From Trypanosoma brucei (taxonomy: Eukaryota), in the NCBI GenBank assembly GCA_000002445.1, contig AE017150.2, forward strand, positions 832,001-896,000: a stretch of 64,000 bases of DNA. The letters are read 5' to 3'. Below, in pieces: positions 31,563 through 51,433 of this stretch. Both the position numbers and the translations under genes were made by a program. Below the pieces are notes generated by a model. It ran no database searches. It was not told the DNA's origin and saw only the letters and a list, made by a program, of their open reading frames with translations. Within the stretch, counting starts at the first letter, position 1. Every line of letters starts with the position of its first letter.

Positions 31563-31964
31563 ACTTAAACTGATAAAAAAACAGCCTTAACTACAAAAGG
31601 GATATGCCTAAAAAAAACCTAAATAAAAGATTCAAATACAGCACAAAAATAAGGTTGACAACGAGCTTCCGGTGCACACACCAACCCGTAAACGAATAAC
31701 AAAGCACATCAAAAACACAAAACTACCAAGACAATCGATAAGGTAACTGTATGCCACGCCAACCAGTTGCAGCGCAATGCTCATACTGGCAAACGTGGCA
31801 CACGCTGCGCCAAGGCTCACAGTATCAACAGTGATGTAATCGACAGAGCGTTACCAAATACATCACCACGACAGGACATAGCACACTACGGAACCTGCAA
31901 CATTACGATATAGCTGCAAAACAAAACAACAGGAAAAACAATTACTGTATATCCACAACACCGG

Positions 31965-33535: not shown

Positions 33536-34516
33536 CTACTCAATTATACCACACAGAAACGACAAGAATAACAGGATACAACAAACAGGAAACGGCACCT
33601 TGTACAGAAGGAACACACTCAATAGTGAGTACATCTCCCTCCCAGAATCAGGTGCAATAACATTCGTCATTCTGCTTGCCTCGCCGACAGCTGCTTCATA
33701 CCCATTACTGCACCGACCGCTAGGAACAGTACCTGAAGCACAGTTAACAGGAGAATAAACCAATGGAGAAGCCGAAGCAGCAGTCTGATCCCCAGCACCC
33801 TTTGGGGAGTGACGGCTCCTCAACGCTGTCGAAGGTGGAGACACCTCTCCTCCAGCATTCCTTACAGCTGAACCTAACTGTGGCTGTGCTGCCGGAGCTT
33901 TCTCCACAGCCGCAGTCTCACAACCTTCCACAAGTCCTTCCACCTTTCCATGACTTCGCTTCATCACAAGGCTATCCGGAACACCCAACTCCCCATAAAT
34001 ACAGCGAAGTGCACACCGAACAGCATTCCGCTCCCTCGCCTGCACACGTCCACGTTGCTTCCAAAATGCAGCAGCGACGTCCGGACCGCTAGGGCCCTTT
34101 CTACTACAGTCACCTCCAAAGAAACCACTCACAGACTCATACGGTGCCATAACTTCCCTCGGCACCACACATATATCCACGAACACCTCATCCCTTGTGC
34201 CAGCGTCTGGCAACTCCACAGCTCCTTCCTCCACGCCACCACGCCTCGCTGCGAGACGACGGAGCCTACGGATGTCAAGCATAAACTTCACCCTCACACA
34301 TTCACCAGCAAATATCAGTCCAACAGATGGTTGAACACCATAGCGATTGCGTACAGCACTGAGAACTTTGAACGCCACAACATTCTCACAAGGGTCCTCA
34401 GTACGTACAAGTAGACTACTTAACTCGATAATATTCTCAATACTGGCATCCGTCAGAGGAGAAGGAAAGTACAGGCACTCCTGTGAAAAACAAACAATGC
34501 CCCCACCACCCTTCAT
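33536..34516 (-). CDS. conserved hypothetical protein (326 aa), copy 2
   Basis: One amino-acid difference from 10413..11393 (SRKGPSG versus SSKGPSG). Confidence 0.5.
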   Translation of the reverse strand: MKGGGGIVCFSQECLYFPSPLTDASIENIIELSSLLVRTEDPCENVVAFKVLSAVRNRYGVQPSVGLIFAGECVRVKFMLDIRRLRRLAARRGGVEEGAVELPDAGTRDEVFVDICVVPREVMAPYESVSGFFGGDCSRKGPSGPDVAAAFWKQRGRVQARERNAVRCALRCIYGELGVPDSLVMKRSHGKVEGLVEGCETAAVEKAPAAQPQLGSAVRNAGGEVSPPSTALRSRHSPKGAGDQTAASASPLVYSPVNCASGTVPSGRCSNGYEAAVGEASRMTNVIAPDSGREMYSLLSVFLLYKVPFPVCCILLFLSFLCGIIE

Positions 34517-35016
34517 CGTGGATGAAAGATACGAAACACTAATTACTCACCCGTAAGAAAGGACAGATACGAAATAGAGAAGAAAAACATAAACACATTC
34601 CCGGGAAGTAATGACAGTCACAGATACAACAAGTATGAAAAAGAAGATATTACACCAATAATAAAATAGCAAAACACCAACCTCTAATACGGTCGAATAA
34701 ATATAAACATATAACATGTCCGCTACGCAACAATTAAGCGAAACAAAAAACAATGAAAGGATAGAAAAAATACAGCGCAAACTTCGTTGGGTTGTCAAAC
34801 AATTCAAAAACACAGATTATGTGGTTGCCCACAGCGCCAACAAATCATATAACCATGCCAAATAACGAGCTGAAAGCACTCCCCACTACGGTGTCATCCT
34901 CATGGTCATACCAATAAAGTAAAATACAGAGCAAAAAAATGATCATACATACCATTCGAACGTATCATAGTACAATGAAAGAGTGACAAACATTTATGCA
35001 GCCACGCAACTCAACA

Positions 35017-35205
35017 TTACAACATATATATACAAACAGTATTAGGCATGGAGAAATACTCCTTCACATTAACAATCACGCGTCCATCATCACCATCAGC
35101 AGCAGTCACATGCAGCGAACACACGGCAGTTAGCAAATATAAAAGACCGCACAGGAGAGCAGCACGCGTAAAACCAAAATTCACCATACGGGTGTCCATG
35201 CTCAT
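35017..35205 (-). pseudogene. truncated 5' fragment of the lectin-like surface protein gene, copy 2
   Basis: Shares the signal-peptide N-terminus with the 36049..37104 gene, then diverges to the same PNTVCIYML stop as copy 1. It has 2 substitutions relative to the copy-1 fragment. Confidence 0.6.
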
Positions 35206-36048
35206 TGTCAGTGTTGCTTCCTTATGAGTTTATCAAATACACACATATGCGGGAAAGAGGGAAGAGCGTGTGAGTAAAGGGGAAATGCAACAGTGACAAT
35301 AGAAAAAGGAGTTACACAAGATATCAAATAATCACACATACACTCGAGGATAATAAACAAGAAATATGAAAAGGATAACACAAATAATAATGGAAGAGAG
35401 CAGCCATATCACATATCCCAACAAATTGGTTAGTGAGACACAGGTACTCAAAACATTTATTATCATAATGGGCCAAGTATAACTCAGGGATTGAACACTA
35501 TGGAACTCTCGTTTAATGTAACCTCATATAGATTGTTAAAATTATCAAGTGCTGCAAGTTACACGTATAGCAATACATCACACGTAACAGGGAGGACCTA
35601 CAAGCCTCCCACATATACATGGAAGTAAAACATGAAATAACGCGAACTAAACATGACACCCACACACGAAATAAATAATCAACACTAACAACAACGAAAC
35701 AATGGGACATCAAACAGTAAAGATGGTTCAATGGGTCACACACTAAAAGAACAATGATGTGGTCGGAGGGAAGTGATGCCACACATCGGAAGTCCCTCGC
35801 AGAGCCAACATGGTACAAGGAGACCGTTAATATTAGGAACATAAAAGTAATAATTATATAAGAGAGTATTGAGCACTACTGAAAGTAATAGTAGGAAGTG
35901 AAACAATACACGAAGCTAGAAATTGTGACGGTCCGTAACGTAGGATGAAAGCGGTACAGTATTCATTACTCCACTTGATCCTAAACATCACTCAACCACC
36001 ACCCATGTGATACACGATGTGACGCTAATATTATTCACTGGTTCTCAT

Positions 36049-37104
36049 TTAGCCATAATATTGCAGGGCTAAGGGAGGAGCATCAAAACCCTCTGGGGGA
36101 GCAAAAGGTGTTGGCTCCAGGACAAACAACGGTTCTCCAACAACTTCACGCAGCGTCATGGGAATGATCTCCTTTTTAACATTATAATCACAGAACCAAC
36201 GTAAAAGGAAAAGCAGCAACACAATGAGGGAAACAACAGAAATTAGAGCTATGAGAATAATGTGCCAATTACTTCTCTCTTCCAATGACGCAGTTGTCAC
36301 AGTAACTTCTTCATCCTTTGTCACAGTTGGTTCCGGTACTTCGCCTGAGGCAGGTGCAGCTGTAGTTGTTGTCGTCGTGCTGATAGAATCGTGGACCTCG
36401 CAAACAACAACGTAGTCTTGAGACTTTGTTTCAAAGTTCTGACTTGTCCATCGGATAGTCCCAGAAGCCTCCCTGCCATCGTACCAGGTAGTCACATCTT
36501 CGTGTTCATGGTACCATGAAAGGGTATACAACTGACCACTCTTGGGATATTCACTACCCCAAAAGGATGGGTAACCATTCATTGGGGCCGCAAAAGCGTA
36601 TTTGACATATGAACCACGCCAGAACGCCACCCCGTGACCATCAGGCAAAGCCTTTGCAAACAATCCCTTATTCCAACGATACACACAATGACGTGAAGAT
36701 GCCGCGTCTCCAGGCTTACAACGCTTATCAGCTTCAAATACCCTTGTACTGCTGTACACAGCATCTCCACCAAGGTAGCTGACGGCCTCAAACTCAAAAA
36801 TTACACTCTTCATAGCATCCTGCAAACTTTGGTGTGCCGCCTCCGTTTGATCGGCAGGAAGCACAGCACCGTTGTCGACACAATATGCTTCAGCATTATC
36901 GTAACCAACAATGTACCGTTCGTGACGACTAAATGCAAAATTGTCCATAGAGAAATACTCCTTCACATTAACAATCACGCGTCCATCATCATCATCAGCA
37001 GCAGTCACATGCAGCGGACACACGGCAGTTAGCAATAATAAAATACCGCACAGGAGAGCAGCACGCGTAAAACCAAAATTCACCATACGGGTGTCCATGC
37101 TCAT
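36049..37104 (-). CDS. type I membrane surface glycoprotein with a lectin-like ectodomain, short poly-Thr stalk and TM (paralog B)
   Basis: 351 aa with the same architecture as 12902..13999. It differs in clustered ectodomain substitutions (SRHERYIVGYDNAEAYCVDNG, KSVIFEFEAV, SSTRVFEAD, HEHED). The Thr run is 5 rather than 13, and the C-terminus is shorter (QYYG stop). Confidence 0.6.
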   Translation of the reverse strand: MSMDTRMVNFGFTRAALLCGILLLLTAVCPLHVTAADDDDGRVIVNVKEYFSMDNFAFSRHERYIVGYDNAEAYCVDNGAVLPADQTEAAHQSLQDAMKSVIFEFEAVSYLGGDAVYSSTRVFEADKRCKPGDAASSRHCVYRWNKGLFAKALPDGHGVAFWRGSYVKYAFAAPMNGYPSFWGSEYPKSGQLYTLSWYHEHEDVTTWYDGREASGTIRWTSQNFETKSQDYVVVCEVHDSISTTTTTTAAPASGEVPEPTVTKDEEVTVTTASLEERSNWHIILIALISVVSLIVLLLFLLRWFCDYNVKKEIIPMTLREVVGEPLFVLEPTPFAPPEGFDAPPLALQYYG

Positions 37105-39087
37105 TGTCAGTGTTGTTTCCTTATGAGTCTATCAAATACACACATATGCGGGAAAGAGGGAAGAGCGTGTCAGTAAAGGGGAAATGCAACAGTGACAATA
37201 GAAAAAGGAGTTACACAAGATATCAAATAATCACACATACACTCGAGGATAATAAACAAGAAACATGAAAAAGGATAACACAAATAATAATGGAAGAGAG
37301 CAGCCATATCACATATCCCAACAAATTGGTTAGTGAGGCACAGGTACACGTCGTATTTGATACAATAGTGGAGAAACTAAAGCAGAAAGAATATACATTA
37401 TTCAACTCTTGTTTGGTACAACCCTACTGTGCGAGGTCACCCGGAGCATTCGAGAGTGATGAAAACCAAATCCTCGCCTATTCATTATCCACGTTAGTTG
37501 AGGAGCGGAACCAACACCGACCGTCACTTCGCAAAGACGAAAAAAAATATGCAGATACAGCATAACATATCAGCTACATGCATGGTTTATGTACTGGAGC
37601 ACAGCTGGACAGTCAGCGACATTTGTCACGTAATTGCGAAACATTGTCCGTTGTTTCGTGCTTGCTGAGAGACTCCTGTAAAGTACATACTCGTCAAAAT
37701 AACCTTAAGGAAGAAAGAGAAGAAAACTAGTGGCAAGCCTTTACGACAGTAGTGAAGTTTTTGCACAAATCCTTCATCACGTGCAAAACTGTTGTAGTCA
37801 TCATCTGTACACTAAATCATTGTGCGCGCCCCATTATTCATTGCTTACTATGTCGCTTTATTGCACTACGCTACGCTGTATAACCTCATCGTCTTGGAAG
37901 TAACGTGGGTCAGATGTGGACCGTTATGAAAAAGTCGTACAACCACCACACGTTGGAAGTGCCCGTGGCGAAGGCAGCGCCGTTGGAGAAGATCAACTTA
38001 TCTTTTGTCCACGTTACGTGCAAACGCAGTTACATCCTTCGGAAACCTTCTGAAGAGCATTAAACCTTCGAAAGACGTTACGCATTTTATCTCGGTCGTG
38101 CCCATACTTACGGCTATGACTCCTCAAAGGATAAATTGAGTAATTATATATGAGTAATCACTCTTCATTTGTCAAAAAAAAAAAGATGAAAGGAAAGGAA
38201 AGGGGGCAAGTTTTAAGATATTGATGTTGTGTAACGGACATGAGTTGCCCTCCATTCCATTTGAAAAAAAAAACAAGATATTTCCTTTATGTTACACACT
38301 CTCTCACATTGTTGTGATTCAGCATTATGAAGCTTACTGCTGCCACTGCCGCTGCCACGCGTTGATAACAGCAACAGCGAGTAGACGGTTTCAGAGGCCA
38401 CCCTCGCCATTTACCGTCCTTCTCGTTTACTTCTCTCCTTTACTAGTTTTGAGACTTCTTTTTTTTTTCTTTTTGCAGCTATCCCCGTGCCTTGTGTCCT
38501 TCGCGTTTGCACAACATAAAGGGGAACTTTGGAGGAGGGGGGGAGGCGATGCCTTTTTATAATGTCATGTGCTCTGTACGAAGCAGAGGAGGGGAGTTAA
38601 ACAGCGTTGTGCTGCTGGCACGAGACGGGGGTTAGACATTTCCTCCAATGCGCATGTCAAAATACACGGGAGGGCTCAAGCAATGTGCAGCACTCACTTT
38701 ACCAGGCAAACCACCTAAAAACAGTCTCTCCACCCCGAGTCAGCATCAAGAGCAGAGGATGGTTGGAGTTAGGATGAAAAAAAAAACTGAGAACGTGAAC
38801 AAGTTAGCGAATGTAAAGTTGAGGGAATCAAGGTACTTTCGTTTTTACACACACACACATACCTACCTACTTGAGCACAGAGCTAAAAAAGAAAATGGGT
38901 AAACTATTTCCCACGCTACTCCACACCATTCTGTCTGACGGAGAGTCCTATGAAGGCAAGAAGCGCCACTCGCTAACCCAACCCATTTCTCCTTCTTTAC
39001 GTGTATCGAAGTTTGTGGAATAAGAAGGAAACTCCTAAAACATACACAAACACACACACACGTATATATATATATACTTCACCACTC

Positions 39088-39825
39088 TCATTTCATCAAC
39101 GTCATGAAGTCTGGAAGTTGAGTCGCCACATTTCCTGGAATGATTTGAGCTGAGTGGGGTGAACTCTCAATCGCGCTCATTAGGGCATCGAACACCAAAG
39201 CGCCTCCAGTCTCACTAAAGTGAAGACCATCAGAAAGGTAATCGCACCACGGCCCTTTGGCTACATTTGGCGACTCAGCGTCTTTTCCAAGAAAACGTTC
39301 GTACAGGTCAACGACATGAACGTCATTGTGCGCTTTTTTCTCCACGCATCCGACCTGCAAAACCGCATCGCGATAACTGAGGACCCTTTCAAGTGATCGG
39401 CCACAGGTGCTGGGGTCTGCCCCAAACTCCCGCTGCAGGCGTTTATGCCACTTTTCAACATTTATAGGTGGTGGCGTCATGAGAAAAATACCGCCGACAG
39501 GAGAAGCGTGTTTACGTACCAAGTCGATGATCGCCCTCAAGTTACTCTTGAATTCATGCAACGGTACGGCCTGACCACCGGTGGCACAGTCATTGGAACC
39601 CAACAACAATGTTATAAACAGCGGACGTGGGGCGTACGCGGGAAGTAAATGGTGCCGTGACTCATCATTCTTCAGTATGCTCAGAATCCAACGAGTGTTG
39701 TAACCACACAACCCACGGTTTATGACGTCTGCGCGGCGGACGTATACGTTGCTCAGTCGTGACGCCCACCCGCACTCAAAGCCCCACTCCGTGAGAGAAT
39801 CACCCAACAAAAGAATGTGAGACAT
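39088..39825 (-). CDS. GDSL/SGNH-family lipase or esterase (IAH1-like)
   Basis: 245 aa. Carries SGNH-hydrolase blocks: an N-terminal GDSLTE block (LLLGDSLTEWGF), GSNDCA, and a DGLHFS catalytic Asp/His block. Confidence 0.75.
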   Translation of the reverse strand: MSHILLLGDSLTEWGFECGWASRLSNVYVRRADVINRGLCGYNTRWILSILKNDESRHHLLPAYAPRPLFITLLLGSNDCATGGQAVPLHEFKSNLRAIIDLVRKHASPVGGIFLMTPPPINVEKWHKRLQREFGADPSTCGRSLERVLSYRDAVLQVGCVEKKAHNDVHVVDLYERFLGKDAESPNVAKGPWCDYLSDGLHFSETGGALVFDALMSAIESSPHSAQIIPGNVATQLPDFMTLMK

Positions 39826-40125
39826 AGAAAATACGTCGGAGGGGAAAAGAGGTACAAAACTGTTGAATATAGGTGATGTCTGTTGCTAATGTTTCTTCTT
39901 TGATACTATTATTAATACTGGTGGATCGCGTAACGCAATCGCGCAGCAAAAATGAAAGGAGGGAAGAAGGGACATACACGACAAATACTCGGCACTATCT
40001 AACATACAATACAACCGCCACAACAATGTTGTTATTAACCCCAAATGCTCTCCCCCACTTGCCGCACACAAACACCCCATAATAACCGTAAGCGCCAACT
40101 CTGGTGAAGAATAAACCGAAAGCGT

Positions 40126-40175
<50 letters not shown>

Positions 40176-40180
40176 AGACA
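40126..40180. repeat. (CA)n / (GT)n dinucleotide microsatellite, about 22 perfect repeats plus a degenerate tail
   Basis: Read directly: cacacaca... from 40126 to 40170, then tacacagacac. It lies between the zinc-finger gene stop (40188) and the GDSL gene start (39825). Confidence 0.9.
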
Positions 40181-40187
40181 CCTCCAT

Positions 40188-43100
40188 TCATTCATGCAGC
40201 GGCAACAAACCTCCTGCTGCGGTTGTGCATTTAGAACCACCACTGTTAGCGGCGGAATTGGCTGTGGTGTGCCTTTTACACTTACAGATATCATTCATAT
40301 TCGTCCCAACCACCTCTGTCACCACTCGGGACTCACGGGGCACCGCTTTCCGATGTAGACAAGCAGGGCAAACAACATCGTTCACAATCCACTGACGCGG
40401 CAATTTCATGTATCGAAGGTACGCCCAACGCGTCTCACGATAAATGTGAGCCTTTTGCATAGGTCGCACGAGCTCGCACAACTGTGAGAGTACCTCAAAA
40501 CCTAGTTCGTCATAGTCGGTCGTGAGATTCATAAGATCGACCAAATCCAGCGCAATAGCTACCCAGGGCCTCTTGTGTGCCCACGAAACCACCGGCACGC
40601 CGTCAACAACGTTATTGGGCTTTCCTTCCAACGCCAACAAGCAAGCCAACTGAATAATCTCCGCCACGCTCCTTACGGCACTGTGCACTGTGCCATCCTC
40701 CAACACTGGCACCCGTGGGCGTATGCCGCACCTCAAACCTCGAGAAAGGTCACATCCACGCCAGGGCAACGCTGCCTCCTCTGCGCGCTGTAGTGCAGCG
40801 ACTGCGGAACGAAGTAACTTCAAAGCGGTCGAAGGGGAGAGCTCACCATGCGCCGCGCGACGGACCGCGTTGAGAACTATCTTAAGCCTCAAACGGTGAA
40901 CTATCTCTTGCTCCGCCGGCCACACACTGGAAGGCAAAGACCGTCGTTGGTTGCAGTGGTTACATGCAGGACAGACACCGGCTAGATTTTCCAAATGCAA
41001 AAACGTCCCACATGAAGCGCAAGGGGATGGCCCTAAGGGCAGCGGAAAAAGTAGTGCAGTGGGTAAGCAAACCTCAGCACCACCCGGTGAGACACCGTCG
41101 CCGTCTCCCGCAGGGTGGTTCCCGCTGCCGCTAATGTCTTCAACTTCCTTGACTGTGTGATGTAGGTCACTCGCAACCGCAGCCCCGCCAACCTTCTGTT
41201 CAGCAGCGCTGGGATGCATGTCAGTGCACGAACGTATTTCTCGGTACCGAAGAGGATTTGTATAATAAGTAGCGACAGCAACGGCATCGTGAGCAGCACC
41301 ACAGTGCAGGCACGCTAACAGTCCCTCACCACTACCTTTTCGCAAATTGACGCCTAAACAGTTGTTTTTCAGGCAAACCCAAAGCGTGCAAGCGGTATGT
41401 GGGCGAGGAGCATGGCACGTTGGACAAGCCACAGCCTCCTTACCATCGTAGAGGCTACCGCAATGTGGACACGAAGTGTATGCCGGCTCCACCCCACCCT
41501 CAGTAAAATCAATGTCACGTCGGCCTGGATCCCTCTCTGTAGGCTCGAGCACATCCTCGCAGCTACGACAGACAACACTCCACGCAGGGCATGTTGCTCC
41601 ACAGCGAGTGCATTGTCGGGTGGCCCACGGTGTGTCAAGGCGAGTAAATGACGCAGATTTGGTGGCGCCACAGCCGTGACAATGAGTAAGTAGCCATGGG
41701 CAAGCCGTATGGCACTCCACACAACGCCACAATGTCTTTGGAGGACCCGAAGCGGCAGCTGTACACAATGTCCCGCAAAGGGAACACCAAGGACGGAGCA
41801 TCCCAAGAGGATTGTGCCGTCCGCAAACCCTGCAGTCGAATGCAGTTCGCGCCATGGCCTCTTCCATCGTTGGCTGAGGGGATGCACACCGTGCGCAGTA
41901 GAATAAATGTTGCGGTTCGTTTGTGTGGCTGCATCGACCACAGCGCCAGCGTCGTAGTGGAAAGATGGTGCAACCATCAAGAGGAAGCGCGTCACATCCA
42001 ACACCCGCTCCCCGTTCCAATGTTTCCGCTCCACATACAAGACAAATAGGGAAGTTACTGGGAGAAAATCCCCCACAGCCGCGGCATTGAATGACTGCTA
42101 GCTCCAGCGTACCACAGTATTGACACGTGCTGGCACCCCTCCTGTTCCATCGAGTGCATGACCGGCACCTCCACGGCTGTCGCTGCCGCCCAACGTACCG
42201 TCGAAATTCTAAAGCACTCTGCACAGCTTTCAGCACCTTGTCCGTGTGCTCACCCATTTCTGTGGTCGTGACACGGTGGTTCAACGACTCCAATGACGCG
42301 AGTGGCATTTCGTGCAGTGGGCTTAGGTGAGTAACGGGGCATCGAGGCGCGCCCACCACGTCGAGGAGTACAACGCTTATTCCTTCAACGAAACCCAAAC
42401 TAAGGAAGTGCTGAAGGGCCATACGACGCGCACCCAACCCAGGGTGCGCGCGATCCAACAGAGACAAGAGGCAGAAGTGGTCGGATGTAGCTTCCCCGGA
42501 ACGGCATTCACCAAGAAGACGCACGTACAATTCTACAACCTTCGAAAGGAGTCCATCCCTTCGGTAAGTTTCCACTGATGTGTGGCGGTGCAGCAATGCG
42601 TGAAGCAGCTGCAGGCATTCATAAGGCGTAGCATATCCCAAATGACTGTCGTTCGCACCAGCACACCCATGGGCAACTGCAGAAAAGGCGACTGCCGGAG
42701 GTATAGGAAATTTCCATGCTCGCGTCAGGTCGTACAAGCGGAACATACCCACCAAAGCCTCCTCAAATCCTGATTCACTGCAGTACCGCCTAGATGCCCC
42801 CTCCACAGCTTCCAACATCAAATCACGGATGTAGTGAGGGAGGCCGGCAGCAAAGTGCCGCCTCGCACCCAGTAAAAAATGTGTGAAAACCTCCACAGCC
42901 TCAGAATACCTCCCCAACAACACGAGTGCTTTGCCGCCCTCCCACGAACCACCCAATGATGGACAGTCGTGTAGATGCCTCTCAATGATTTCATAGGCGC
43001 CACAGCGTAGAAATAACTTGAAGGAAATGCGAATAGCCTCCCTTAGGCGCCGATCAACCACTGCCCGCGCCCCGCGGTGGAGACCGATGGCATCACGGTC

Positions 43101-44462
43101 ACAGCCGACGGCGGGCGCGCTCCGCTCCAGGGCGTTAAGGTGGGCAACACAACGCGACAGGAGAGAGGATGTTTTCTCTTTCGCATACGCGTTAACGTCT
43201 GGGGCGGTCTCACCAACGTGTCCAACTGTCATGAGAGTGTAGGCGTCAAGCAACAACACTTCTCTGTACACCAAGGGCCCAAATCGCCCTGCTGCGGCAG
43301 AGACAAGCGGAGATTCCAGGCCAGCGACGTCATCCCCCCGCACGGAAGCGTGAGAAGCAGATACCAGGGCACTGTGAAGAAGTAAAATTGGTAGTACGCG
43401 GCCGTGGCGACGGAATGAACAAATGGTACGGCGAAGCGACTGCAACGCGCCGACCTTCGTGCGAGTTCCTACGTCCGTACGGGCAAGCACAAAGTGCGCG
43501 TAACGCACCATCTCAAAAAGAAGCAAGCGCCAAAAAGGGGAAAAGCGCTCTGCCTCCGAAGGAATACAGGAAATTGGTAAAATATTTTGTAACGATAAAA
43601 GCAGTCTCTCTTCTCTCTCGTTCTCACCAAACAGGCACCCATCCAATGCATCCAGCTCTGAGCCGTCATTCGGGAATTGGAAAAGATAACCAGTTGGGGC
43701 CCGGCACACTTCCACCGTTGCGGACTCTAGCAACTCGGTATTTTCAACGTCAGGGCTCACCGCGCACCGCCACAACAACCACAGCACCCCTCCGTGTGCA
43801 CCACGTTTCACCAACAGCTGCATGCTCTTCCGCAAAGGACCTCCAGTGGTGTCCTCAGCTGCAGCAGCACAGGCAAGTGGCAAAAGAAGGTGCACACTCA
43901 AAATATTATCTTGCCGCAACCAGTATGTAAAAATTGTTGTTGCACAATCCCACGTTTCTTGCACTGTCCAGAAGAACTCGTACTTCTTTTCACTCCGTTC
44001 CGCATGCCAACCGCGGCCTAACCGGCATCCACCAACCATGTCCCTCACGAACAGAGCATACTCCCTTTGCACGCCACAGAGAAGCCGCCAGGATCCCCCC
44101 TCCTCTGAAGTAGCGGTGGCTTTATGACGAGTATTTTCCTCACCACCCGGAACCAAAGGAAATGGGGGAGGAGTGTCTAAAAGACCCGCCACAGCGCTTG
44201 CGCCCAGCCCTGTCGCGACTATAATGTCACACAATATTCCCTCGCGTATAAGCGAACGCAGCGGCAGGGAGTTGTACAAAAAGAAAGAAACCGACAGTGC
44301 TGCGTCCGACCGACCCTTCGTCACGTGAAACAACTCGCTGAACAAGTGCGACTTCAGGGAGGGTTTGCTACCCTCAGGGTTAAAGGCGATGCCATACTCT
44401 ACCGGCACAACACAACGCGCGTGCGCAACAGCACTCTGCCGGATAAAAGGTGGCTTCAGCAT
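40188..44462 (-). CDS. large (1424 aa) protein with a central tandem array of about 9 RanBP2-type / C2C2 zinc-ribbon fingers
   Basis: Repeated W-x-C-x2-C-x3-N-x6-C-x2-C motifs include WRCRSCTRWNRRGASTCQYCG, WRCGRCSHTNEPQHLFYCARCA, FDCRVCGRHNPLGMLRPWCSLCG, WRCVECHTACPWLLTHCHGCG and RQCTRCGATCPAWSVVCRSCE. More C2C2 units follow. They are encoded at roughly 41070-42215. The flanking ~750-aa N-terminal and ~300-aa C-terminal regions have no recognised domain. Confidence 0.6.
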   Translation of the reverse strand: MLKPPFIRQSAVAHARCVVPVEYGIAFNPEGSKPSLKSHLFSELFHVTKGRSDAALSVSFFLYNSLPLRSLIREGILCDIIVATGLGASAVAGLLDTPPPFPLVPGGEENTRHKATATSEEGGSWRLLCGVQREYALFVRDMVGGCRLGRGWHAERSEKKYEFFWTVQETWDCATTIFTYWLRQDNILSVHLLLPLACAAAAEDTTGGPLRKSMQLLVKRGAHGGVLWLLWRCAVSPDVENTELLESATVEVCRAPTGYLFQFPNDGSELDALDGCLFGENEREERLLLSLQNILPISCIPSEAERFSPFWRLLLFEMVRYAHFVLARTDVGTRTKVGALQSLRRTICSFRRHGRVLPILLLHSALVSASHASVRGDDVAGLESPLVSAAAGRFGPLVYREVLLLDAYTLMTVGHVGETAPDVNAYAKEKTSSLLSRCVAHLNALERSAPAVGCDRDAIGLHRGARAVVDRRLREAIRISFKLFLRCGAYEIIERHLHDCPSLGGSWEGGKALVLLGRYSEAVEVFTHFLLGARRHFAAGLPHYIRDLMLEAVEGASRRYCSESGFEEALVGMFRLYDLTRAWKFPIPPAVAFSAVAHGCAGANDSHLGYATPYECLQLLHALLHRHTSVETYRRDGLLSKVVELYVRLLGECRSGEATSDHFCLLSLLDRAHPGLGARRMALQHFLSLGFVEGISVVLLDVVGAPRCPVTHLSPLHEMPLASLESLNHRVTTTEMGEHTDKVLKAVQSALEFRRYVGRQRQPWRCRSCTRWNRRGASTCQYCGTLELAVIQCRGCGGFSPSNFPICLVCGAETLERGAGVGCDALPLDGCTIFPLRRWRCGRCSHTNEPQHLFYCARCASPQPTMEEAMARTAFDCRVCGRHNPLGMLRPWCSLCGTLCTAAASGPPKTLWRCVECHTACPWLLTHCHGCGATKSASFTRLDTPWATRQCTRCGATCPAWSVVCRSCEDVLEPTERDPGRRDIDFTEGGVEPAYTSCPHCGSLYDGKEAVACPTCHAPRPHTACTLWVCLKNNCLGVNLRKGSGEGLLACLHCGAAHDAVAVATYYTNPLRYREIRSCTDMHPSAAEQKVGGAAVASDLHHTVKEVEDISGSGNHPAGDGDGVSPGGAEVCLPTALLFPLPLGPSPCASCGTFLHLENLAGVCPACNHCNQRRSLPSSVWPAEQEIVHRLRLKIVLNAVRRAAHGELSPSTALKLLRSAVAALQRAEEAALPWRGCDLSRGLRCGIRPRVPVLEDGTVHSAVRSVAEIIQLACLLALEGKPNNVVDGVPVVSWAHKRPWVAIALDLVDLMNLTTDYDELGFEVLSQLCELVRPMQKAHIYRETRWAYLRYMKLPRQWIVNDVVCPACLHRKAVPRESRVVTEVVGTNMNDICKCKRHTTANSAANSGGSKCTTAAGGLLPLHE

Positions 44463-45243: not shown

Positions 45244-47046
45244 TCACACTCCTTGATCATTTGGAGACGCTACTGCAGAACCTGTTGGACTTGGGGGACG
45301 GAAAAGCAAACCCTGCAAAATATCACCCAGCAATTTTATGCCGTCCACTGTCCTAGCGGCTTCCTCGGCACGGGTAGCGATGACATCCTGTCCAGCCTCC
45401 CTTGCTACTGAGGCCACATCTAAGAGAAGTAAGAGCACAGCCGCATCCATAATCGACCGGTCGGCTAGCCGACAGCAATGCAACGGCAATCGTACGTCAC
45501 TACCCGTCCCACTTCCAGGAGAGCACACCACCTCAGGTGACAGAACAGGCCGTCGCAGTACGTAGCTGCGCCCACCACACACTAAGAGCGGATGTGGGAG
45601 AGTACAACCGTAAAGAGTGGACAACGCAACCACGAGATGCGCCGCGCAACCAAGAGAGAGACCCCATTCCTGCAGCAACTCGGTTGACACCCCCTCTGAC
45701 TGGTTGAGTGTTGGCAAGCGGAACCCGCATATACTATACCCAGTGCCGGCCGCCGTGGTGTGGAGAGAGTTACCAGCGCAGCGGATGGGGAACAGCTCCC
45801 GCAACTCCACCACCCTGTAGTACCTCGCCCGCCCAAGCTGTGTGCGAAGGGAGGCATGTTTTCGCTCCTGCTCCTGCACCGTGCTGATGGACAGTTCCTG
45901 TTCCATCCTTTCCTGATCCAACTTTTGCTCTACCGTTTCCAGTTGCGTGTATAGTGACAGTGCGGCCCTCCGTTCATCCGCATATTCTCTACGCAGCTTC
46001 TCCAAGGACAGAAGTTCATATCGCTGCCTCTCGCGGGCACTCTCCAAGCGCGCCTTCAGCACGGCATGCTGCGCCCCCACCACCGCACCCTCTCCTCCCA
46101 AATAGCCGTACTTATCAGCCTTGTCCATGAGTGCCTTCTGCAATTTAGCCCTTGCTGAGCCGAATTCGTTCAAATAGACCCACGCCAAAGTGCCTGTCGA
46201 ACAGGCCTTCAGGTCTCCGACCGACATATTCTTCAAACTGTCAATACGTCGCAGCAGCGCGCCGTTGCGGGTCTCGTTATGAGATGAGGTCACCGAGCCA
46301 CCAGCTCCCCATGCAGTTGGCGCCGCCATTTTGAACAGTGATATTTGTGCTTCCGCAGAGTCCTCCCGCTCCGCACACATGCCTTGGTGTAGCGGAAAGA
46401 AAACACCATCGCTACACCGCAGTAACAAGACAAAAGAATGCAACCCATTGTCCACATGACAGGGCAGTTGCGGTAACTCATCCGCGGCTGTCATGCTCGG
46501 TGCTACAAACTGTACATGGGACGTCTCCACCAACATCTCGTACAGAAGCAAATCCGTATCAGGTGCCGGTCGTGGATCTTTCAGATGTGTTGTGCAGGAG
46601 TACAGAGAAAAGATAAACTTCGTCAGACTTGCGAATTGCATCCGCACCGATTCCGGAATATGCTGCCACACCGGATGCTGAGTATCACACTGAACCTCAC
46701 TCATGTAAATGCAGCGACCCCCATCGGTGGAAGCCCTCTCAGCGACACCCGCATCAACAGCGGCCTCTGAACCTCTTTGGTTTGTGGTCTTCGGAGCAGA
46801 ACTAATAACAAAATAAGATGATATACATCGCCGATCATTCTCCTGGGCTTCTTTGCTTTCGCCATGTGCCCCCGGTTCATCTCCGGCGTTTTTTAGCGGT
46901 AGGTTGCGGGCGTAGATATGCAATATGTGCCGAAAACAGCGAAGCTCAGGTGGAACCACCGAACACGTCATGATGTTCAGTGGTACAGAGCAGGCAACAC
47001 AAACTACGAAAACAAACAAGAGATAACTGTCCAGTTTGTCCCCCAC
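45244..47046 (-). CDS. hypothetical protein, 600 aa, with an N-terminal C2-like region and central coiled coil; possible UVRAG/Vps38-like PI3K-complex subunit
   Basis: The N-terminal LRCFRHILHIYARNL ... YFVISS ... IYMSEVQCDTQHPVWQHI ... FIFSLYSC parallels the UVRAG C2 region (RRLRHLRNIAARNI ... YFTLHL ... [22 protein letters not shown] ... FVVKIWGG). A coiled coil follows (LESARERQRYELLSLEKLRREYADERRAALSLYTQLETVEQKLDQERMEQE). The assignment is speculative. Confidence 0.4.
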   Translation of the reverse strand: MGDKLDSYLLFVFVVCVACSVPLNIMTCSVVPPELRCFRHILHIYARNLPLKNAGDEPGAHGESKEAQENDRRCISSYFVISSAPKTTNQRGSEAAVDAGVAERASTDGGRCIYMSEVQCDTQHPVWQHIPESVRMQFASLTKFIFSLYSCTTHLKDPRPAPDTDLLLYEMLVETSHVQFVAPSMTAADELPQLPCHVDNGLHSFVLLLRCSDGVFFPLHQGMCAEREDSAEAQISLFKMAAPTAWGAGGSVTSSHNETRNGALLRRIDSLKNMSVGDLKACSTGTLAWVYLNEFGSARAKLQKALMDKADKYGYLGGEGAVVGAQHAVLKARLESARERQRYELLSLEKLRREYADERRAALSLYTQLETVEQKLDQERMEQELSISTVQEQERKHASLRTQLGRARYYRVVELRELFPIRCAGNSLHTTAAGTGYSICGFRLPTLNQSEGVSTELLQEWGLSLGCAAHLVVALSTLYGCTLPHPLLVCGGRSYVLRRPVLSPEVVCSPGSGTGSDVRLPLHCCRLADRSIMDAAVLLLLLDVASVAREAGQDVIATRAEEAARTVDGIKLLGDILQGLLFRPPSPTGSAVASPNDQGV

Positions 47047-48787: not shown

Positions 48788-51433
48788 TCAAAACGGTCCG
48801 GAGGGCCCCTCTGACGAGACAAATCTCCCCTGTCCGTTGCTCTTGATATCGGGGCGGAGCATCACAGCAGCAGCTGCAACAAGTTGCTCCACACGGGTCA
48901 ATGTCTCTGTTTCCTCTCGCGTCAACGAACGGCCAACTGACTCCTGCGACTCCAAAAACAACCGAAGAGTCTCCTCACACTTCTGCAGTGGAAGAAGAAG
49001 TCTGCCGGGGGTACTCTGCGAAGAACAGTGGGAAGAATCACTTGACGCATCCACAGTGAGCTGCGATCCCTGTGAACCCCCTTTGATTGCCTTTGTTTCT
49101 GAAGTTGGAACCCGACCCAAGTGGGGAAAAAGCATTTGCCAGACGGTAACTTGTGGCGCCAATAAGGCCTCGCATGAGTGCATGGTCACGTCGCCACCAG
49201 TAGTAAGCCCCTTCCCTTCCAGAATCTGACGGAGTGCCGTAGCGACAGAGCCCCCAGGACACAACTCCGCCACCGGTACCGAGGTTTCGCGCTGCGCAAA
49301 AAGGTACAAACACACCGCCGCGTGGTAGCGCAAGATCCCCTCCACACACTGAGACCTGTCGGCTGGCTCTCCGCTGAGCCTACTACCATGTAAGTCGCTT
49401 CCGGATTCCAAGGGTTTGAAGCTTATCTGCACCAGGCGGTGCAACAGTGTGCTATAGGCTGAATCACCACACTGTAAAAGTCCTGCAACAGCAACAATCT
49501 CCGCAGCTACAAATCGTGCACACACGCGAACATCATCCGACGAGTCAGCTGAGTTGTAAAGCGCCTCAATAGCACGCGTGGCAACAGAGAACAAGGGCAC
49601 CACGTTGATGCTACGTGAACCGCTCGTGTGGTTGCACTGCCGCAAAATTTCAACAAGCTTTCCTGGGACCGATGTTAGAACCATGCACAGACGTTGTTTC
49701 TGATCCCCTTCATTGTGTGAAAAAGCGGATTGAAGCTCGTCATGGAGAGCCGAAACAGCCGTTCCCGGTGGAGTCGCTGACACCGCTGCACCCGCTGCGC
49801 GCTCATTACCGCTGAGCACCAGCATCTCCTCCCACCACCACTGATACACACGCGACTGGTGGTACAGTATGCTTACCATGCGATGAAACGTCGGACCTTC
49901 CGGAGGCACGGATCCAACCGTAGAGTCGTTCCTTGTGCCAGTGAGCACCTCAGGCGGGACTCGCAACAGGCGGCATATCTCCGCTGTAAGGACGGCTAGT
50001 AGATTGAGAAATCTGCGCAGAGTCTCCACTTTATCATGCTGCAGAGTATGTGATCTGCGCAGAGCACATAGCTGTCCCTCGCCTAGGAGCAGCAGCTCTT
50101 CCCCCAAGGTTCGACGCAAAGCGCCAGGAAGAGCGTGTAGCGCCGCCTCCCACACCAACAGCACCCGAGCGGCGCTAGTATCGTTTGGTACAAGAAGCGC
50201 GGCAAGCAAAATACTGAAAACCCGAAAGCGCTGTAGCACACCGCACATGAAGCCACTCCCATTCTTTTCGAGGTTTCCGTCCTGCTGATCCAACTGCACG
50301 CTCCTTCGAACGGTACTACGCAGCAGCAACATGAGCTGTGCCCCAAGGTCAAGCTCCTGTGACGACTCCATCGCTTCCACCTCATGCCCCCGACCTGCGT
50401 AGTACACCTCCCGTGGGAGCTCCTTTGCGAGCTGTGAGACGCGTTTGTGCAGTGCACATGCCCCACTATCTTGCTCAACAAGGACAACTGTCATGTCTGG
50501 TAGCCACAAGAGCGAAACCTCCAACAACCGCTCTAGAGAAGCTGGCTTCTCCAACAACGGCACCATCGAACGCGCCATCGCCAACATGGCCGTCATTGCT
50601 GCCACCGCCGTTATAGAATCAACGTCCACCTCATCTCCCAACGATGTCGCTACCTCCGAAGGAGCAGTTCTCAGACACTTCACAAGCAACGGCGACCAGC
50701 CCCCATCCTCCCCAACCTGCTGTTCACCCAGTGTTCCCCCTAAAGCTCCGAGTGTGCCAAGCAGCCGCACCCCAACTTGTTTCTGCAGTTGTTGCGCAGC
50801 CTCCCCATTCTCGGTAGTAACAAGTGTGAAGACGGTCGTGATATGAAGATCCAATATCGAGTTAACAAATGCTTCATCCCGCACCGCAAACGACGGATGC
50901 TTCCTCACGGTCGAAACAAGGTATGAGGCCACGAAGGTTGTGAGTTTAATTTGTTTCGGATCAGACCAGTCGTGCGAAAAAATGTGGTGCTGTAGTTGCG
51001 AGAGCATGAAGTGTAGAATTTTGCAGTAAAGGCCCGCGGTAACATCTTTCAGGGCGGCAACTGAAAGCAGGAGTTTCCATGCAGTGTTCAGTAGCGACAT
51101 GCTGTGGGAACCGCCAACAGAGTTACACAACTGCAGCAGTTCCGGAACAGCTTGCTTATGATGCAAAAGGACTGCGTTTTCATCGAGAGTCCGTATAGAG
51201 TCCGCCTTCCCGGATGACAAAGCCGTCCGGAGGGCGTTAAGTGTGCCTTCCTCACTACCATGTTCCTGTGTCATGAAAACAATCCTTATTGTTGATGAAG
51301 GTATGTATATATTTCTACGTAGACGCGTACGCAAGAATGTCCTTCTGCCCAAAACTCCCCTAGTAAATGCACAAAACGCACACATGTGTACAAACCCAGT
51401 AATTACAGCAAGGGGAAAAGGTAAGCGATTCAA
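48788..51433 (-). CDS. hypothetical protein, 881 aa, predicted largely alpha-helical (possible HEAT/ARM-like solenoid)
   Basis: Long ORF, Leu/Ala-rich with periodic helices. No motif recognised. Confidence 0.5.
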   Translation of the reverse strand: MNRLPFPLAVITGFVHMCAFCAFTRGVLGRRTFLRTRLRRNIYIPSSTIRIVFMTQEHGSEEGTLNALRTALSSGKADSIRTLDENAVLLHHKQAVPELLQLCNSVGGSHSMSLLNTAWKLLLSVAALKDVTAGLYCKILHFMLSQLQHHIFSHDWSDPKQIKLTTFVASYLVSTVRKHPSFAVRDEAFVNSILDLHITTVFTLVTTENGEAAQQLQKQVGVRLLGTLGALGGTLGEQQVGEDGGWSPLLVKCLRTAPSEVATSLGDEVDVDSITAVAAMTAMLAMARSMVPLLEKPASLERLLEVSLLWLPDMTVVLVEQDSGACALHKRVSQLAKELPREVYYAGRGHEVEAMESSQELDLGAQLMLLLRSTVRRSVQLDQQDGNLEKNGSGFMCGVLQRFRVFSILLAALLVPNDTSAARVLLVWEAALHALPGALRRTLGEELLLLGEGQLCALRRSHTLQHDKVETLRRFLNLLAVLTAEICRLLRVPPEVLTGTRNDSTVGSVPPEGPTFHRMVSILYHQSRVYQWWWEEMLVLSGNERAAGAAVSATPPGTAVSALHDELQSAFSHNEGDQKQRLCMVLTSVPGKLVEILRQCNHTSGSRSINVVPLFSVATRAIEALYNSADSSDDVRVCARFVAAEIVAVAGLLQCGDSAYSTLLHRLVQISFKPLESGSDLHGSRLSGEPADRSQCVEGILRYHAAVCLYLFAQRETSVPVAELCPGGSVATALRQILEGKGLTTGGDVTMHSCEALLAPQVTVWQMLFPHLGRVPTSETKAIKGGSQGSQLTVDASSDSSHCSSQSTPGRLLLPLQKCEETLRLFLESQESVGRSLTREETETLTRVEQLVAAAAVMLRPDIKSNGQGRFVSSEGPSGPF

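What the first reader, a model, noticed from the sequence alone, without database searches (positions are those of the whole stretch)
41070..42215. Tandem array of about nine RanBP2-type/C2C2 zinc-ribbon fingers inside a 1424-aa protein
The middle of the 40188-44462 ORF encodes consecutive W-x-C-x2-C-x3-N-x6-C-x2-C units (WRCRSCTRWNRRGASTCQYCG, WRCGRCSHTNEPQHLFYCARCA, WRCVECHTACPWLLTHCHGCG and others), some degenerate. RanBP2 fingers bind ssRNA (ZRANB2-like) or ubiquitin (NZF-like), so a multi-finger array suggests sequence-specific RNA binding or polyubiquitin sensing. The large flanking regions have no recognisable domains. This could be a lineage-specific RNA regulator, relevant in an organism that controls gene expression post-transcriptionally.
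Basis: partly seen in the sequence, partly recalled or inferred. Interest (0 to 1): 0.55.

Follow-up and report, generated by a model that had tools for sequence, protein, structure and literature searches.

The report
Nine-zinc-ribbon protein of trypanosomes
The finger array is real: this is Trypanosoma brucei gene Tb927.2.4950, an uncharacterised protein found in all kinetoplastids, with nine conserved zinc-ribbon fingers between two helical domains, but the fingers lack the known RNA- or ubiquitin-binding signatures, and one proteomic screen places the protein in the mitochondrion.

Summary
The minus-strand ORF 40188-44462 encodes 1424 aa and is identical to T. brucei TREU927 XP_951671.1 / Q586T3, gene Tb927.2.4950. 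It carries nine Cys4 units (aa 764-1170), against 0.3-0.9 expected by chance. All their cysteines are invariant in seven Trypanosoma species. Those of fingers 1-6 are invariant in 18 kinetoplastids, including free-living Bodo saltans.

"RanBP2-type" is only partly right. Finger 1 alone fits the PROSITE pattern. Pfam zf-RanBP gives no hit at E<=10. Profiles of fingers 1, 3 and 5 find solved NZF/Nup153/RanBP2 fingers only at sub-significant E-values. No finger has the NZF T-F/Phi motif, the ZRANB2 N-[FW]-x-R-R motif or the Nup153 L-V motif.

The flanks are not featureless. The N-terminus is a confidently modelled TPR-like alpha-solenoid, and the C-terminus is a conserved helical domain. Neither could be assigned to a family.

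An ATOM40-knockdown importome (Peikert 2017) lists the protein among 331 new mitochondrial candidates, with marginal statistics.

My best reading is a kinetoplastid-specific, probably mitochondrial scaffold whose diverged RanBP2-like zinc ribbons dock RNA or partner proteins. That is functionally analogous to T. brucei MRB6070 and the plant OZ factors. The function is inferred, not shown. Interest is moderate.

The parts
40188..44462 (-). Complete CDS of Tb927.2.4950 (1424 aa plus stop; 155.9 kDa, pI 8.25)
   Evidence: The ORF is listed. It is an exact match to XP_951671.1 / Q586T3. The ORF length of 4275 nt matches Tb927.2.4950 in a Fadda 2014 supplement. Q586T3 at 155.91 kDa is given as Tb927.2.4950 in a Peikert 2017 supplement. 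The computed mass agrees.
44400..44462 (-). N-terminal 21 residues: basic, free of acidic residues, modelled as disordered. A possible but unproven mitochondrial presequence.
   Evidence: MLKxPYxR is conserved in Trypanosoma. pLDDT is below 50 for residues 1-34. TargetP and MitoFates are negative in Peikert 2017. The feature discriminates poorly among ORFs of this window.
42183..44360 (-). N-terminal all-alpha solenoid (about aa 35-760)
42858..42950 (-). TPR-like helix pair (about aa 505-535, SWEGGKALVLLGRYSEAVEVFTHFL)
   Evidence: Profile positions 450-496 match many TPR-repeat proteins repeatedly. One of them, P0035, scores TPR_12 at 4.5e-214. TPR_7, TPR_8 and TPR_14 give marginal hits in a few of the 18 orthologues.
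42114..42173 (-). Finger 1 (aa 764-783): WRCRSCTRWNRRGASTCQYC. The only exact PROSITE PS01358 match.
   Evidence: Pattern match. W764 and the four Cys are invariant in 18 orthologues and N773 is conserved in at least 90%. The best PDB hits are the TAB3 NZF, MDM4, Nup153 and YAF2 fingers at E=0.05-1.2.
42033..42086 (-). Finger 2 (aa 793-810): C-x2-C-x10-C-x2-C with no Trp. It forms a 'double zinc ribbon' with F1.
   Evidence: Pfam DZR covers aa 766-811 at 17.6 bits, below the 27.3 cut-off. DZR is on record for orthologues P0002-P0006. The Cys are invariant. In Bodo saltans this finger has W-x-C.
41886..41948 (-). Finger 3 (aa 839-859): W-x-C-x2-C-x3-N-x7-C-x2-C. Its loop is one residue longer than the RanBP2 pattern.
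   Evidence: Sequences. W839 and the Cys are invariant and N848 is conserved in at least 90%. The best in-register PDB hits are the HOIP NZF fingers at E=0.03-0.055.
41775..41834 (-). Finger 4 (aa 877-896): [FY]-x-C-x2-C-x3-N-x8-C-x2-C-G-T-L
   Evidence: Sequences. The Cys and G897 are invariant.
41670..41729 (-). Finger 5 (aa 912-931): W-x-C-x2-C-x10-C-x2-C. The Asn is lost in T. brucei but present in most other lineages, where the finger fits PS01358.
   Evidence: W912, P922 and the Cys are invariant. The best PDB hit is the archaeal eL40 zinc ribbon at E=8e-4, followed by TAB2 NZF and RanBP2 fingers at E about 0.15.
41559..41612 (-). Finger 6 (aa 951-968): C-x2-C-x10-C-x2-C. The Asn is present in most orthologues and the Trp is present in Bodo saltans.
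   Evidence: The Cys are invariant. By hhalign it is closest to F1 and F5.
41415..41471 (-). Finger 7 (aa 998-1016): a generic C-x2-C-x11-C-x2-C ribbon. It is the only finger lost in some lineages.
   Evidence: It is invariant in Trypanosoma. It is absent from the Leishmaniinae orthologues and from P0030, P0022 and P0036.
41301..41381 (-). Finger 8 (aa 1028-1054): W-V-C-L-x3-C-x3-N-long loop-C-x2-C (the C-x4-C variant)
   Evidence: C1051 is invariant. W1028, C1030, C1035 and C1054 are conserved in at least 90%.
40953..41021 (-).
   Evidence: C1148 and C1164 are conserved in at least 90%. The linker aa 1058-1143 is 27.5% identical within Trypanosoma.
40383..40913 (-). Conserved C-terminal helical domain (about aa 1184-1360), with the motifs LPWRGCDL and TTDYDELGF
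40278..40370 (-). C-terminal C-x2-C...C-x-C motif (aa 1365-1395). A possible tenth metal site.
   Evidence: C1365, C1368, C1393 and C1395 are invariant in Trypanosoma. No Pfam hit.

Best explanation
Shown: this is Tb927.2.4950, a 156-kDa protein family found across kinetoplastids. It has three parts: (i) a roughly 750-aa TPR-like alpha-solenoid, (ii) nine Cys4 zinc ribbons, and (iii) a conserved helical C-terminal domain that ends in another Cys motif. F1-F6 form the best-conserved block of the whole protein. Each finger has its own lineage-wide sequence signature.

Inferred origin: the fingers descend from a RanBP2-like archetype (W-x-C-x2-C-x3-N-x6-C-x2-C). F1, F3, F5 and F6 are closest to it. 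The fingers have since diverged into non-equivalent modules.

Inferred mechanism: the protein is imported into the mitochondrion. There the solenoid acts as a platform, and the string of individually specialised zinc ribbons provides several small docking surfaces for single-stranded RNA and/or partner proteins of organellar gene expression. This parallels the multi-RanBP2-finger protein MRB6070 in T. brucei mitochondria and the OZ factors in plant organelles. It does not use the known NZF, ZRANB2 or Nup153 contact residues.
For: Architecture and selection:
- Nine C4 units against fewer than 1 expected by chance.
- All finger Cys are invariant in seven Trypanosoma species.
- The Cys of F1-F6 and three Trp are invariant in 18 kinetoplastids, including Bodo saltans.
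- The F1-F6 block is the most conserved region: 59.7% identity within Trypanosoma and 37.9% across kinetoplastids.

RanBP2-like ancestry:
- F1 fits PS01358. F5 fits it in most other lineages. Bodo saltans F5 and F6 fit it, and Bodo F2 regains the W-x-C start.
- hhalign groups F1, F3, F5 and F6 together.
- Finger profiles hit solved NZF, Nup153, RanBP2 and MDM fingers in register.

Solenoid:
- The AF2 model has pTM 0.72.
- The N-terminal profile matches TPR proteins.

Mitochondrion:
- Peikert 2017 Supplementary Data 6 lists Tb927.2.4950/Q586T3 among 331 new mitochondrial candidates.
- Its abundance fell to 0.34-fold in gradient-purified mitochondria after ATOM40 RNAi, in 4/4 replicates, p=0.049.
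- The N-terminus is basic and free of acidic residues, like the neighbouring mitochondrial L11.
- The transcript is listed as elevated in stumpy forms. Established knowledge is that stumpy forms pre-adapt their mitochondrion.

Precedents:
- Plant OZ1 and OZ2 are organellar RanBP2-finger factors in RNA editing and splicing.
Against: - The importome evidence is marginal: p=0.049 and 1.7% sequence coverage. The same list contains obvious non-mitochondrial proteins such as nucleoside transporters. TargetP and MitoFates predict no presequence.
- The protein was not found in the held supplement text of TrypTag or hyperLOPIT, so localisation is unconfirmed.
- It has no match to any chain of the solved structures in the PDB, which include T. 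brucei mitochondrial complexes. It is therefore not a stable modelled subunit of any of them.
- No finger carries a validated RNA-contact signature.
- The finger region is only mildly basic: net charge +9 and pI 8.4.
- No RNA-binding or interaction data exist.
- The AF2 confidence for the fingers is low, pLDDT about 50-68.
Confidence: 0.4

Rival explanations
1. Protein-protein scaffold or assembly factor with no direct RNA contact. The zinc ribbons are small rigid beads that each bind a different protein partner, in the mitochondrion or elsewhere. The solenoid and the C-terminal domain provide further interfaces.
For: Each finger has a distinct, strongly conserved non-Cys signature, for example F4 NPLGLLRPWC and F5 PWLLTHC. 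That suits specific protein partners. RanBP2-type fingers are often protein-binding: the NZF, Nup153 and MDM2 hits all come from protein-binding fingers. Plant OZ1 acts through protein contacts in editosomes. The array is only mildly basic.
Against: No partner is known. The protein is not in any solved complex. This rival overlaps the best explanation and differs only in the ligand.
Confidence: 0.3
2. One reading: a cytosolic or nuclear sequence-specific ssRNA-binding regulator that uses ZRANB2-like fingers to control mRNA fate.
For: The fold class and the W/N positions are RanBP2-like. F1 keeps an invariant Trp next to the Asn, followed by basic residues (W-N-[KRS]-[KR]). TriTrypDB 8.1 carries electronic GO terms for 'RNA binding'.
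Against: The ZRANB2 signature N-[FW]-x-R-R is absent from all nine fingers in 18 orthologues. ZRANB2 is only a weak PDB hit, E=1.5. The gene is absent from the held supplements of the genome-wide tethering screen. The one localisation-type datum points to the mitochondrion. The GO terms are unreviewed and no translation-factor domain was reproduced by Pfam.
Confidence: 0.15
3. One reading: an NZF-type polyubiquitin sensor in which tandem fingers read ubiquitin chains.
For: The best in-register PDB hits for F1 and F3 are ubiquitin-binding NZF fingers: TAB3 at E=0.052 and HOIP at E=0.03. Tandem NZFs are known chain readers (established knowledge: TRABID, TAB2).
Against: The defining T-F (right after the second Cys) plus Phi (between Cys3 and Cys4) motif is absent from every finger in every orthologue. 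In the alignment to TAB3, the T-F positions are occupied by [TRQS][RHNQ]. A mitochondrial interior location would exclude ubiquitin.
Confidence: 0.05
4. A Ran- or nuclear-pore-associated zinc-finger protein, analogous to Nup153 or to Nup358/RanBP2, which also has an N-terminal alpha-solenoid followed by a zinc-finger cluster.
Confidence: 0.03

Closest known systems
RanBP2-type zinc finger (PROSITE PS01358/PS50199; Pfam PF00641 Zn_ribbon_RanBP), including the NZF, ZRANB2 and Nup153 subclasses
   Same: It is a short Cys4 zinc ribbon with C-x2-C-x10-C-x2-C spacing. A Trp sits two residues before Cys1 in F1, F3, F5 and F8. An Asn sits four residues after Cys2 in F1, F3, F4 and F8, and in F5 and F6 of other species. 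The fingers are arranged in tandem. Solved members are the best in-register PDB hits for F1 and F3.
   Different: Only F1 fits the pattern. The Pfam model does not score at all in T. brucei. Loops are 1-5 residues longer in F3, F4, F7, F8 and F9. None of the three known ligand-contact signatures is present (T-F/Phi, N-[FW]-x-R-R, L-V). Each finger has diverged into its own conserved type.
Pfam DZR, double zinc ribbon (PF12773; same zinc-beta-ribbon clan by my recollection)
   Same: The F1-F2 pair (aa 766-811) aligns end to end with the 45-residue model. The T. cruzi-clade orthologues score above threshold (best E=7.5e-9).
   Different: T. brucei scores 17.6 bits against a 27.3-bit cut-off. DZR is a descriptive family with no known function. 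It covers only two of the nine fingers.
T. brucei MRB6070 (Tb927.2.6070)
   Same: It is from the same organism. It has 5-6 predicted RanBP2-type fingers, is mitochondrial, and its association with the MRB1/RESC editing accessory complex is RNA-dependent (PMC3384329).
   Different: MRB6070 is 31 kDa and consists of little more than fingers. It did not appear as a sequence relative in the homology searches. Tb927.2.4950 adds a 750-aa solenoid and a C-terminal domain, and it has no interaction data.
Plant Organelle Zinc finger (OZ1, OZ2) proteins
   Same: They are nuclear-encoded, organelle-targeted proteins whose RanBP2-type fingers act in organellar RNA editing or splicing together with helical-repeat (PPR) proteins (PMC4359148, PMC8034646, PMC7154859).
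   Different: OZ proteins have 2-4 canonical fingers and no solenoid in the same chain. No homology was detected, so any resemblance would be convergent.
Nup358/RanBP2 and Nup153
   Same: An alpha-solenoid N-terminal domain is followed by a cluster of four to eight zinc fingers.
   Different: There are no FG repeats, no Ran-binding domains and no L-V motif. The protein is not in the trypanosome NPC interactome supplements. There is no specific structural match.

Membership tests
RanBP2-type zinc finger (PROSITE PS01358) | Pattern W-x-C-x(2,4)-C-x(3)-N-x(6)-C-x(2)-C | tested here: met
   The pattern is met by F1 only (aa 764-783) in T. brucei, and by the equivalent finger in all orthologues except Bodo saltans. 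F5 also fits in T. vivax and most non-Trypanosoma lineages. In Bodo saltans, F5 and F6 fit. The other eight T. brucei fingers do not fit.
RanBP2-type zinc finger (Pfam PF00641 Zn_ribbon_RanBP) | HMM score at or above the gathering threshold | tested here: not met
   There is no PF00641 hit at E<=10 for the whole protein or for any of ten excised fingers. One of 18 orthologues hits at E=0.0017. Caveat: HMMER's filters drop most matches above about E=0.1.
RanBP2-type zinc finger | Sequence similarity to experimentally solved members | tested here: inconclusive
   The F1 profile finds TAB3 NZF at E=0.052 and MDM4, Nup153 and YAF2 at E=0.24-1.2. The F3 profile finds HOIP NZF at E=0.03-0.055. The F5 profile finds TAB2, RanBP2 and MDM2 at E=0.13-0.5, but archaeal eL40 scores better at E=8e-4. 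The alignments are in register but not significant.
RanBP2-type zinc finger | One Zn2+ bound by four Cys in a two-hairpin zinc-ribbon fold | not testable with these tools
   The AF2 model shows short strands around each Cys pair, but pLDDT is only about 50-68 and no metal is modelled. Metal analysis or a solved structure is needed.
NZF (ubiquitin-binding subclass) | T-F immediately after Cys2, plus a hydrophobic residue between Cys3 and Cys4 (T-F/Phi) | tested here: not met
   The residues after Cys2 are TR, GG, SH, GR, HT, GA, GS, LG and GT in F1-F9. No orthologue has T-F at any finger.
ZRANB2-type ssRNA-binding subclass | N-[FW]-x-R-R after the conserved Asn, the GGU-contacting residues | tested here: not met
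   After the Asn, F1 has N-R-R-G (N-S-R-[YF] in other lineages), F3 has N-E-P-Q and F4 has N-P-L-G. None of the 18 orthologues matches. ZRANB2 is only a weak PDB hit at E=1.5. The motif definition comes from my knowledge of Loughlin 2009 and Nguyen 2011.
Nup153/RanBP2 Ran-binding fingers | L-V after Cys2; FG-repeat or NPC context | tested here: not met
   There is no L-V at any finger. There are 2 FG dipeptides and no GLFG. The gene is not found in the held supplements of the trypanosome NPC interactome.
Pfam DZR double zinc ribbon (PF12773) | HMM score at or above 27.3 bits over two adjacent ribbons | tested here: inconclusive
   T. brucei aa 766-811 scores 17.6 bits, below the cut-off. Orthologues P0002-P0006 have PF12773 on record. 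Three of 18 orthologues hit, best E=7.5e-9.
TPR-like helical repeat | 34-residue helix-turn-helix repeats detected by TPR models | tested here: inconclusive
T. brucei mitochondrial importome | Significant depletion from purified mitochondria on ATOM40 knockdown; independent localisation | tested here: inconclusive
   The literature datum meets the authors' threshold only just: log2 -1.56, p=0.049, 1.7% coverage. No presequence is predicted. No microscopy or spatial-proteomics record was found.

The most novel reading that the evidence does not exclude
Kinetoplastids carry a lineage-specific mitochondrial gene-expression factor in which a TPR/PPR-like solenoid is fused to nine RanBP2-derived zinc ribbons. 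The ribbons have each specialised for a different RNA element or partner. This would be a one-chain counterpart, evolved independently, of the plant PPR plus OZ zinc-finger partnership. It would use contact residues unlike any characterised RanBP2-finger subclass.
Probability: 0.2. Interest if true: 0.6.

Novelty: new variant of a known kind. Interest (0 to 1): 0.4.

Why it matters
Trypanosomatid mitochondria run an unusually elaborate RNA-processing system, with U-insertion/deletion editing and a protein-rich mitoribosome. Many of its parts are lineage-specific proteins of unknown function.

Tb927.2.4950 is a 156-kDa protein conserved from free-living Bodo saltans to human parasites. Its most conserved feature is a string of nine non-equivalent zinc ribbons. 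It has a single proteomic pointer to the mitochondrion. That makes it a concrete candidate for a missing adaptor in this system.

The fingers are RanBP2-like in scaffold but lack the three known ligand-contact signatures. Working out what they bind would therefore extend the known repertoire of this small fold.

If the mitochondrial assignment is wrong, the protein is still a well-defined, uncharacterised family found across kinetoplastids. In that case nothing found here would mark it as exceptional.

Tried and rejected
Fold searches:
- The afdb50 library was unavailable.
- I rejected a NOT1-like or nucleoporin-like assignment on that basis.

Homology searches:
- phmmer of the whole protein against PDB sequences gave only a bL32 zinc-knuckle hit at E=0.86.
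- An exhaustive HMM search with the N-terminal profile found 16 clusters at E<1e-30. Those I could name are kinetoplastid.
- The same search also found TPR proteins that match a single repeat. The few remaining weak hits (P0044, P0061, P0070) could not be named. I found no named relative outside the group.

Literature:
- The UniProt accession and gene ID gave no characterisation. In one search only Tb427.02.4950 was a derived ID. The other two IDs were guesses.
- The gene was not found in the held supplement text of TrypTag, the tethering screen, the NPC interactome or hyperLOPIT. Some of these files were cut when stored, so absence is weak evidence.
- The T. brucei mRNA-bound proteome paper (Lueong 2016) is not held.

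Other ideas tested:
- I tested whether the array arose by triplication of a two-finger module. hhalign scores do not support alternating pairs. They only group F1, F3, F5 and F6.
- I tested whether the acid-free N-terminus is diagnostic of a presequence. About 10 of 24 ORFs in this window share the feature, so it is weak evidence.
- The 'translation initiation factor' GO terms in TriTrypDB 8.1 were not reproduced by any Pfam hit. I treat them as unreviewed electronic annotation, possibly from a generic zinc-ribbon match (my guess).
- The ORFs that overlap the gene in other frames, on either strand (for example 41369-42076 and 41696-42049), are by-products of the long ORF and have no support.
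Full report
**1. What is at the coordinates**

The window holds a 4275-nt ORF on the minus strand, 40188..44462, encoding 1424 aa. The protein is identical, residue for residue, to Trypanosoma brucei brucei TREU927 XP_951671.1 / UniProt Q586T3 on chromosome 2. UniProt auto-names it 'RanBP2-type domain-containing protein', and NCBI calls it 'hypothetical protein, conserved'.

I anchored the gene identifier in three steps:
- Primer sequences in a tethering-screen supplement fix three neighbours. Tb927.2.4930 (esterase) is 39088-39825. Tb927.2.5000 is 52008-53228. Tb927.2.4710 is 2116-3441.
- A transcriptome supplement lists Tb927.2.4950 with an ORF of exactly 4275 nt.
- A proteomics supplement pairs Tb927.2.4950 with Q586T3 at 155.91 kDa. 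The computed mass is 155.9 kDa.

The gene is therefore Tb927.2.4950.

**2. The observation**

All three quoted peptides are there. The span contains eight C-x2(4)-C...C-x2-C units: F1 766-783, F2 793-810, F3 841-859, F4 877-896, F5 914-931, F6 951-968, F7 998-1016 and F8 1030-1054.

A ninth unit, F9 (aa 1148-1170, window 40953-41021), follows an acidic, poorly conserved linker and lies outside the span. A further C-x2-C...C-x-C motif closes the protein at aa 1365-1395.

Nine units compare with 0.3 (whole-protein shuffle) or 0.9 (Cys-rich region shuffle) expected by chance. The maximum in 2000 shuffles was 4.

Selection is clear:
- Every finger cysteine is invariant in seven Trypanosoma species at 44-49% overall identity.
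- In 18 kinetoplastid orthologues, all cysteines of F1-F6 and W764, W839 and W912 are invariant.
- In the same set, N773, N848, W1028 and most cysteines of F8 and F9 are at least 90% conserved.
- The F1-F6 block is the best-conserved part of the protein: 59.7% identity within Trypanosoma and 37.9% across kinetoplastids.

**3. Are they RanBP2-type fingers?**

Only in part.
- The PROSITE pattern W-x-C-x(2,4)-C-x3-N-x6-C-x2-C is met by F1 alone in T. brucei.
- Pfam PF00641 gives no hit at E<=10 for the protein or for any excised finger. The only hits are sub-threshold generic zinc-ribbon families, such as DZR at 17.6 bits against a 27.3-bit cut-off over F1-F2.
- Among 18 orthologues, three hit DZR (best E=7.5e-9) and one hits PF00641 at E=0.0017.

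Comparative data still point to a RanBP2-like origin:
- F5 fits the pattern in T. vivax and most non-Trypanosoma lineages.
- In Bodo saltans, F5 and F6 fit it, and F2 regains the W-x-C start.
- F3 differs from the pattern only by one extra loop residue.
- Profile-profile scores group F1, F3, F5 and F6.

Finger profiles searched against PDB sequences retrieve solved RanBP2-type fingers in register, but at non-significant E-values:
- F1 finds TAB3 NZF (0.052) and MDM4, Nup153 and YAF2.
- F3 finds HOIP NZF (0.03-0.055).
- F5 finds TAB2, RanBP2 and MDM2 (0.13-0.5), after the archaeal eL40 zinc ribbon at 8e-4.

I conclude that the fingers are zinc ribbons derived from a RanBP2-like archetype and now strongly diverged. 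Each finger has its own lineage-wide signature, for example F4 N-P-L-G-L-L-R-P-W-C and F5 P-W-L-L-T-H-C. They are therefore non-equivalent modules, not a redundant repeat.

**4. Subclass tests**

The motif definitions here come from established literature as I recall it.
- The NZF ubiquitin-binding T-F/Phi motif is absent. The residues after Cys2 are TR, GG, SH, GR, HT, GA, GS, LG and GT.
- The ZRANB2 RNA-contact motif N-[FW]-x-R-R is absent.
- The Nup153/RanBP2 L-V Ran-contact motif is absent.

This holds for all 18 orthologues. They are not formally excluded, because a new binding mode is possible.

**5. The flanks**

Pfam finds nothing, but the flanks are not featureless.
- An AlphaFold2 model of aa 1-760 is an all-alpha solenoid with pLDDT 74.7 and pTM 0.72.
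- An exhaustive profile search with this domain finds 16 clusters of 1300-2400 aa at E<1e-30. It also finds many TPR proteins that repeatedly match one segment, about aa 505-535.
- The C-terminal domain (about aa 1184-1360) is helical with pLDDT 70-90, 35% identical to Leishmania, and has invariant motifs. It has no specific structural match.
- The finger region itself models poorly, with pLDDT about 50-68.

**6. Distribution**

Orthologues with the same three-part layout occur in Trypanosoma, Leishmania (2293 aa), Phytomonas, Lotmaria and the free-living bodonid Bodo saltans, which has nine C4 units. F7 is the only finger lost in some lineages, including the Leishmaniinae. I found no named relative outside kinetoplastids.

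**7. Experimental pointers**

- The gene appears in the main text of only one held paper, in a list of transcripts elevated in stumpy forms.
- Peikert et al. 2017 list Tb927.2.4950 among 331 'new mitochondrial candidate proteins'. Its abundance fell to 0.34-fold in gradient-purified mitochondria after knockdown of the import pore ATOM40, in 4/4 replicates.
- The caveats are p=0.049, 1.7% sequence coverage and no TargetP or MitoFates presequence. The same list also contains evident non-mitochondrial proteins.
- The N-terminus is basic and free of acidic residues in most orthologues. That feature is common among ORFs of this window, so it adds little.
- The gene was not found in the held supplement text of TrypTag, the tethering screen, the NPC interactome or hyperLOPIT.
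- It matches no chain of any solved structure.

**8. Interpretation**

Shown: the identity of the gene, its architecture, its conservation, and the negative family and subclass tests.

Inferred:
- The protein is probably mitochondrial.
- The solenoid serves as a platform.
- The nine specialised ribbons serve as small docking modules for RNA and/or protein partners in organellar gene expression.

The closest functional precedents are T. brucei MRB6070 and the plant OZ1/OZ2 factors. MRB6070 is a mitochondrial protein with 5-6 RanBP2 fingers whose association with the MRB1 complex depends on RNA. OZ1 and OZ2 are organellar RanBP2-finger factors that act with PPR proteins. Neither is a detectable homologue.

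A pure protein-protein scaffold is nearly as likely. A cytosolic ZRANB2-like regulator, an NZF ubiquitin sensor and a Ran/NPC protein are progressively less likely.

**9. Novelty and score**

At least one RanBP2-type finger is already flagged by automated annotation. I did not find the following described in the literature I could search:
- the nine-finger layout and its conservation back to Bodo saltans;
- the non-equivalence of the fingers;
- the absence of all known ligand signatures;
- the TPR-like solenoid;
- the link to the mitochondrial importome.

I classify the protein as a new variant of a known kind and score interest at 0.4. It is a solid, testable candidate, but nothing about it is yet surprising.

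Noticed in passing
window 8503-14404 and 31627-37510: A 5.9-kb segmental duplication, 98% identical. It carries a three-gene unit: mitochondrial ribosomal protein L11, an MSP-domain protein and an IGP-family ER glycoprotein. My mapping of the two copies to Tb927.2.4740-4760 and Tb927.2.4890-4920 is inferred from supplement ID pairs and gene order.
   Followed up: partly
window 40127-40170: A (CA)22 microsatellite lies directly 3' of the Tb927.2.4950 stop codon. It generates the spurious 'CVCVCV...' ORF 39886-40191 on the minus strand.
   Followed up: no
window 45244-47046 (-): The upstream neighbour has an ATG14/Vps38 match (PF10186, E=6.8e-10). It is a possible PI3-kinase complex subunit.
   Followed up: no
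window 39088-39825 (-): Tb927.2.4930, a GDSL-type esterase, appears in the supplementary tables of the Erben 2014 genome-wide mRNA-tethering screen. That is unexpected for an enzyme.
   Followed up: no
window 48788-51433 (-): An 881-aa ORF with no Pfam hit has an arginine-rich N-terminus with no acidic residue before position 41. By its position I take it to be Tb927.2.4990, which is in the Peikert 2017 mitochondrial lists.
   Followed up: partly
aa 912-934 of the protein (window 41661-41729) and orthologues: The F5 consensus C-x2-C-x3-N-P-W-x4-C-x2-C-G matches the zinc ribbon of archaeal ribosomal protein eL40 (E=8e-4) better than any RanBP2-type finger. The reason is unexplained.
   Followed up: no
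Tb927.2.4950 annotation (Peikert 2017 Supplementary Data 6): TriTrypDB 8.1 attached the GO terms 'translational initiation', 'translation initiation factor activity' and 'RNA binding' to this gene. No Pfam hit here reproduces a translation-factor domain.
   Followed up: partly
window 41369-42076 (-), 41635-41973 (-), 41696-42049 (+): ORFs of 112-235 aa overlap the finger-coding region in other frames or on the other strand. They are mechanical by-products with no support.
   Followed up: no
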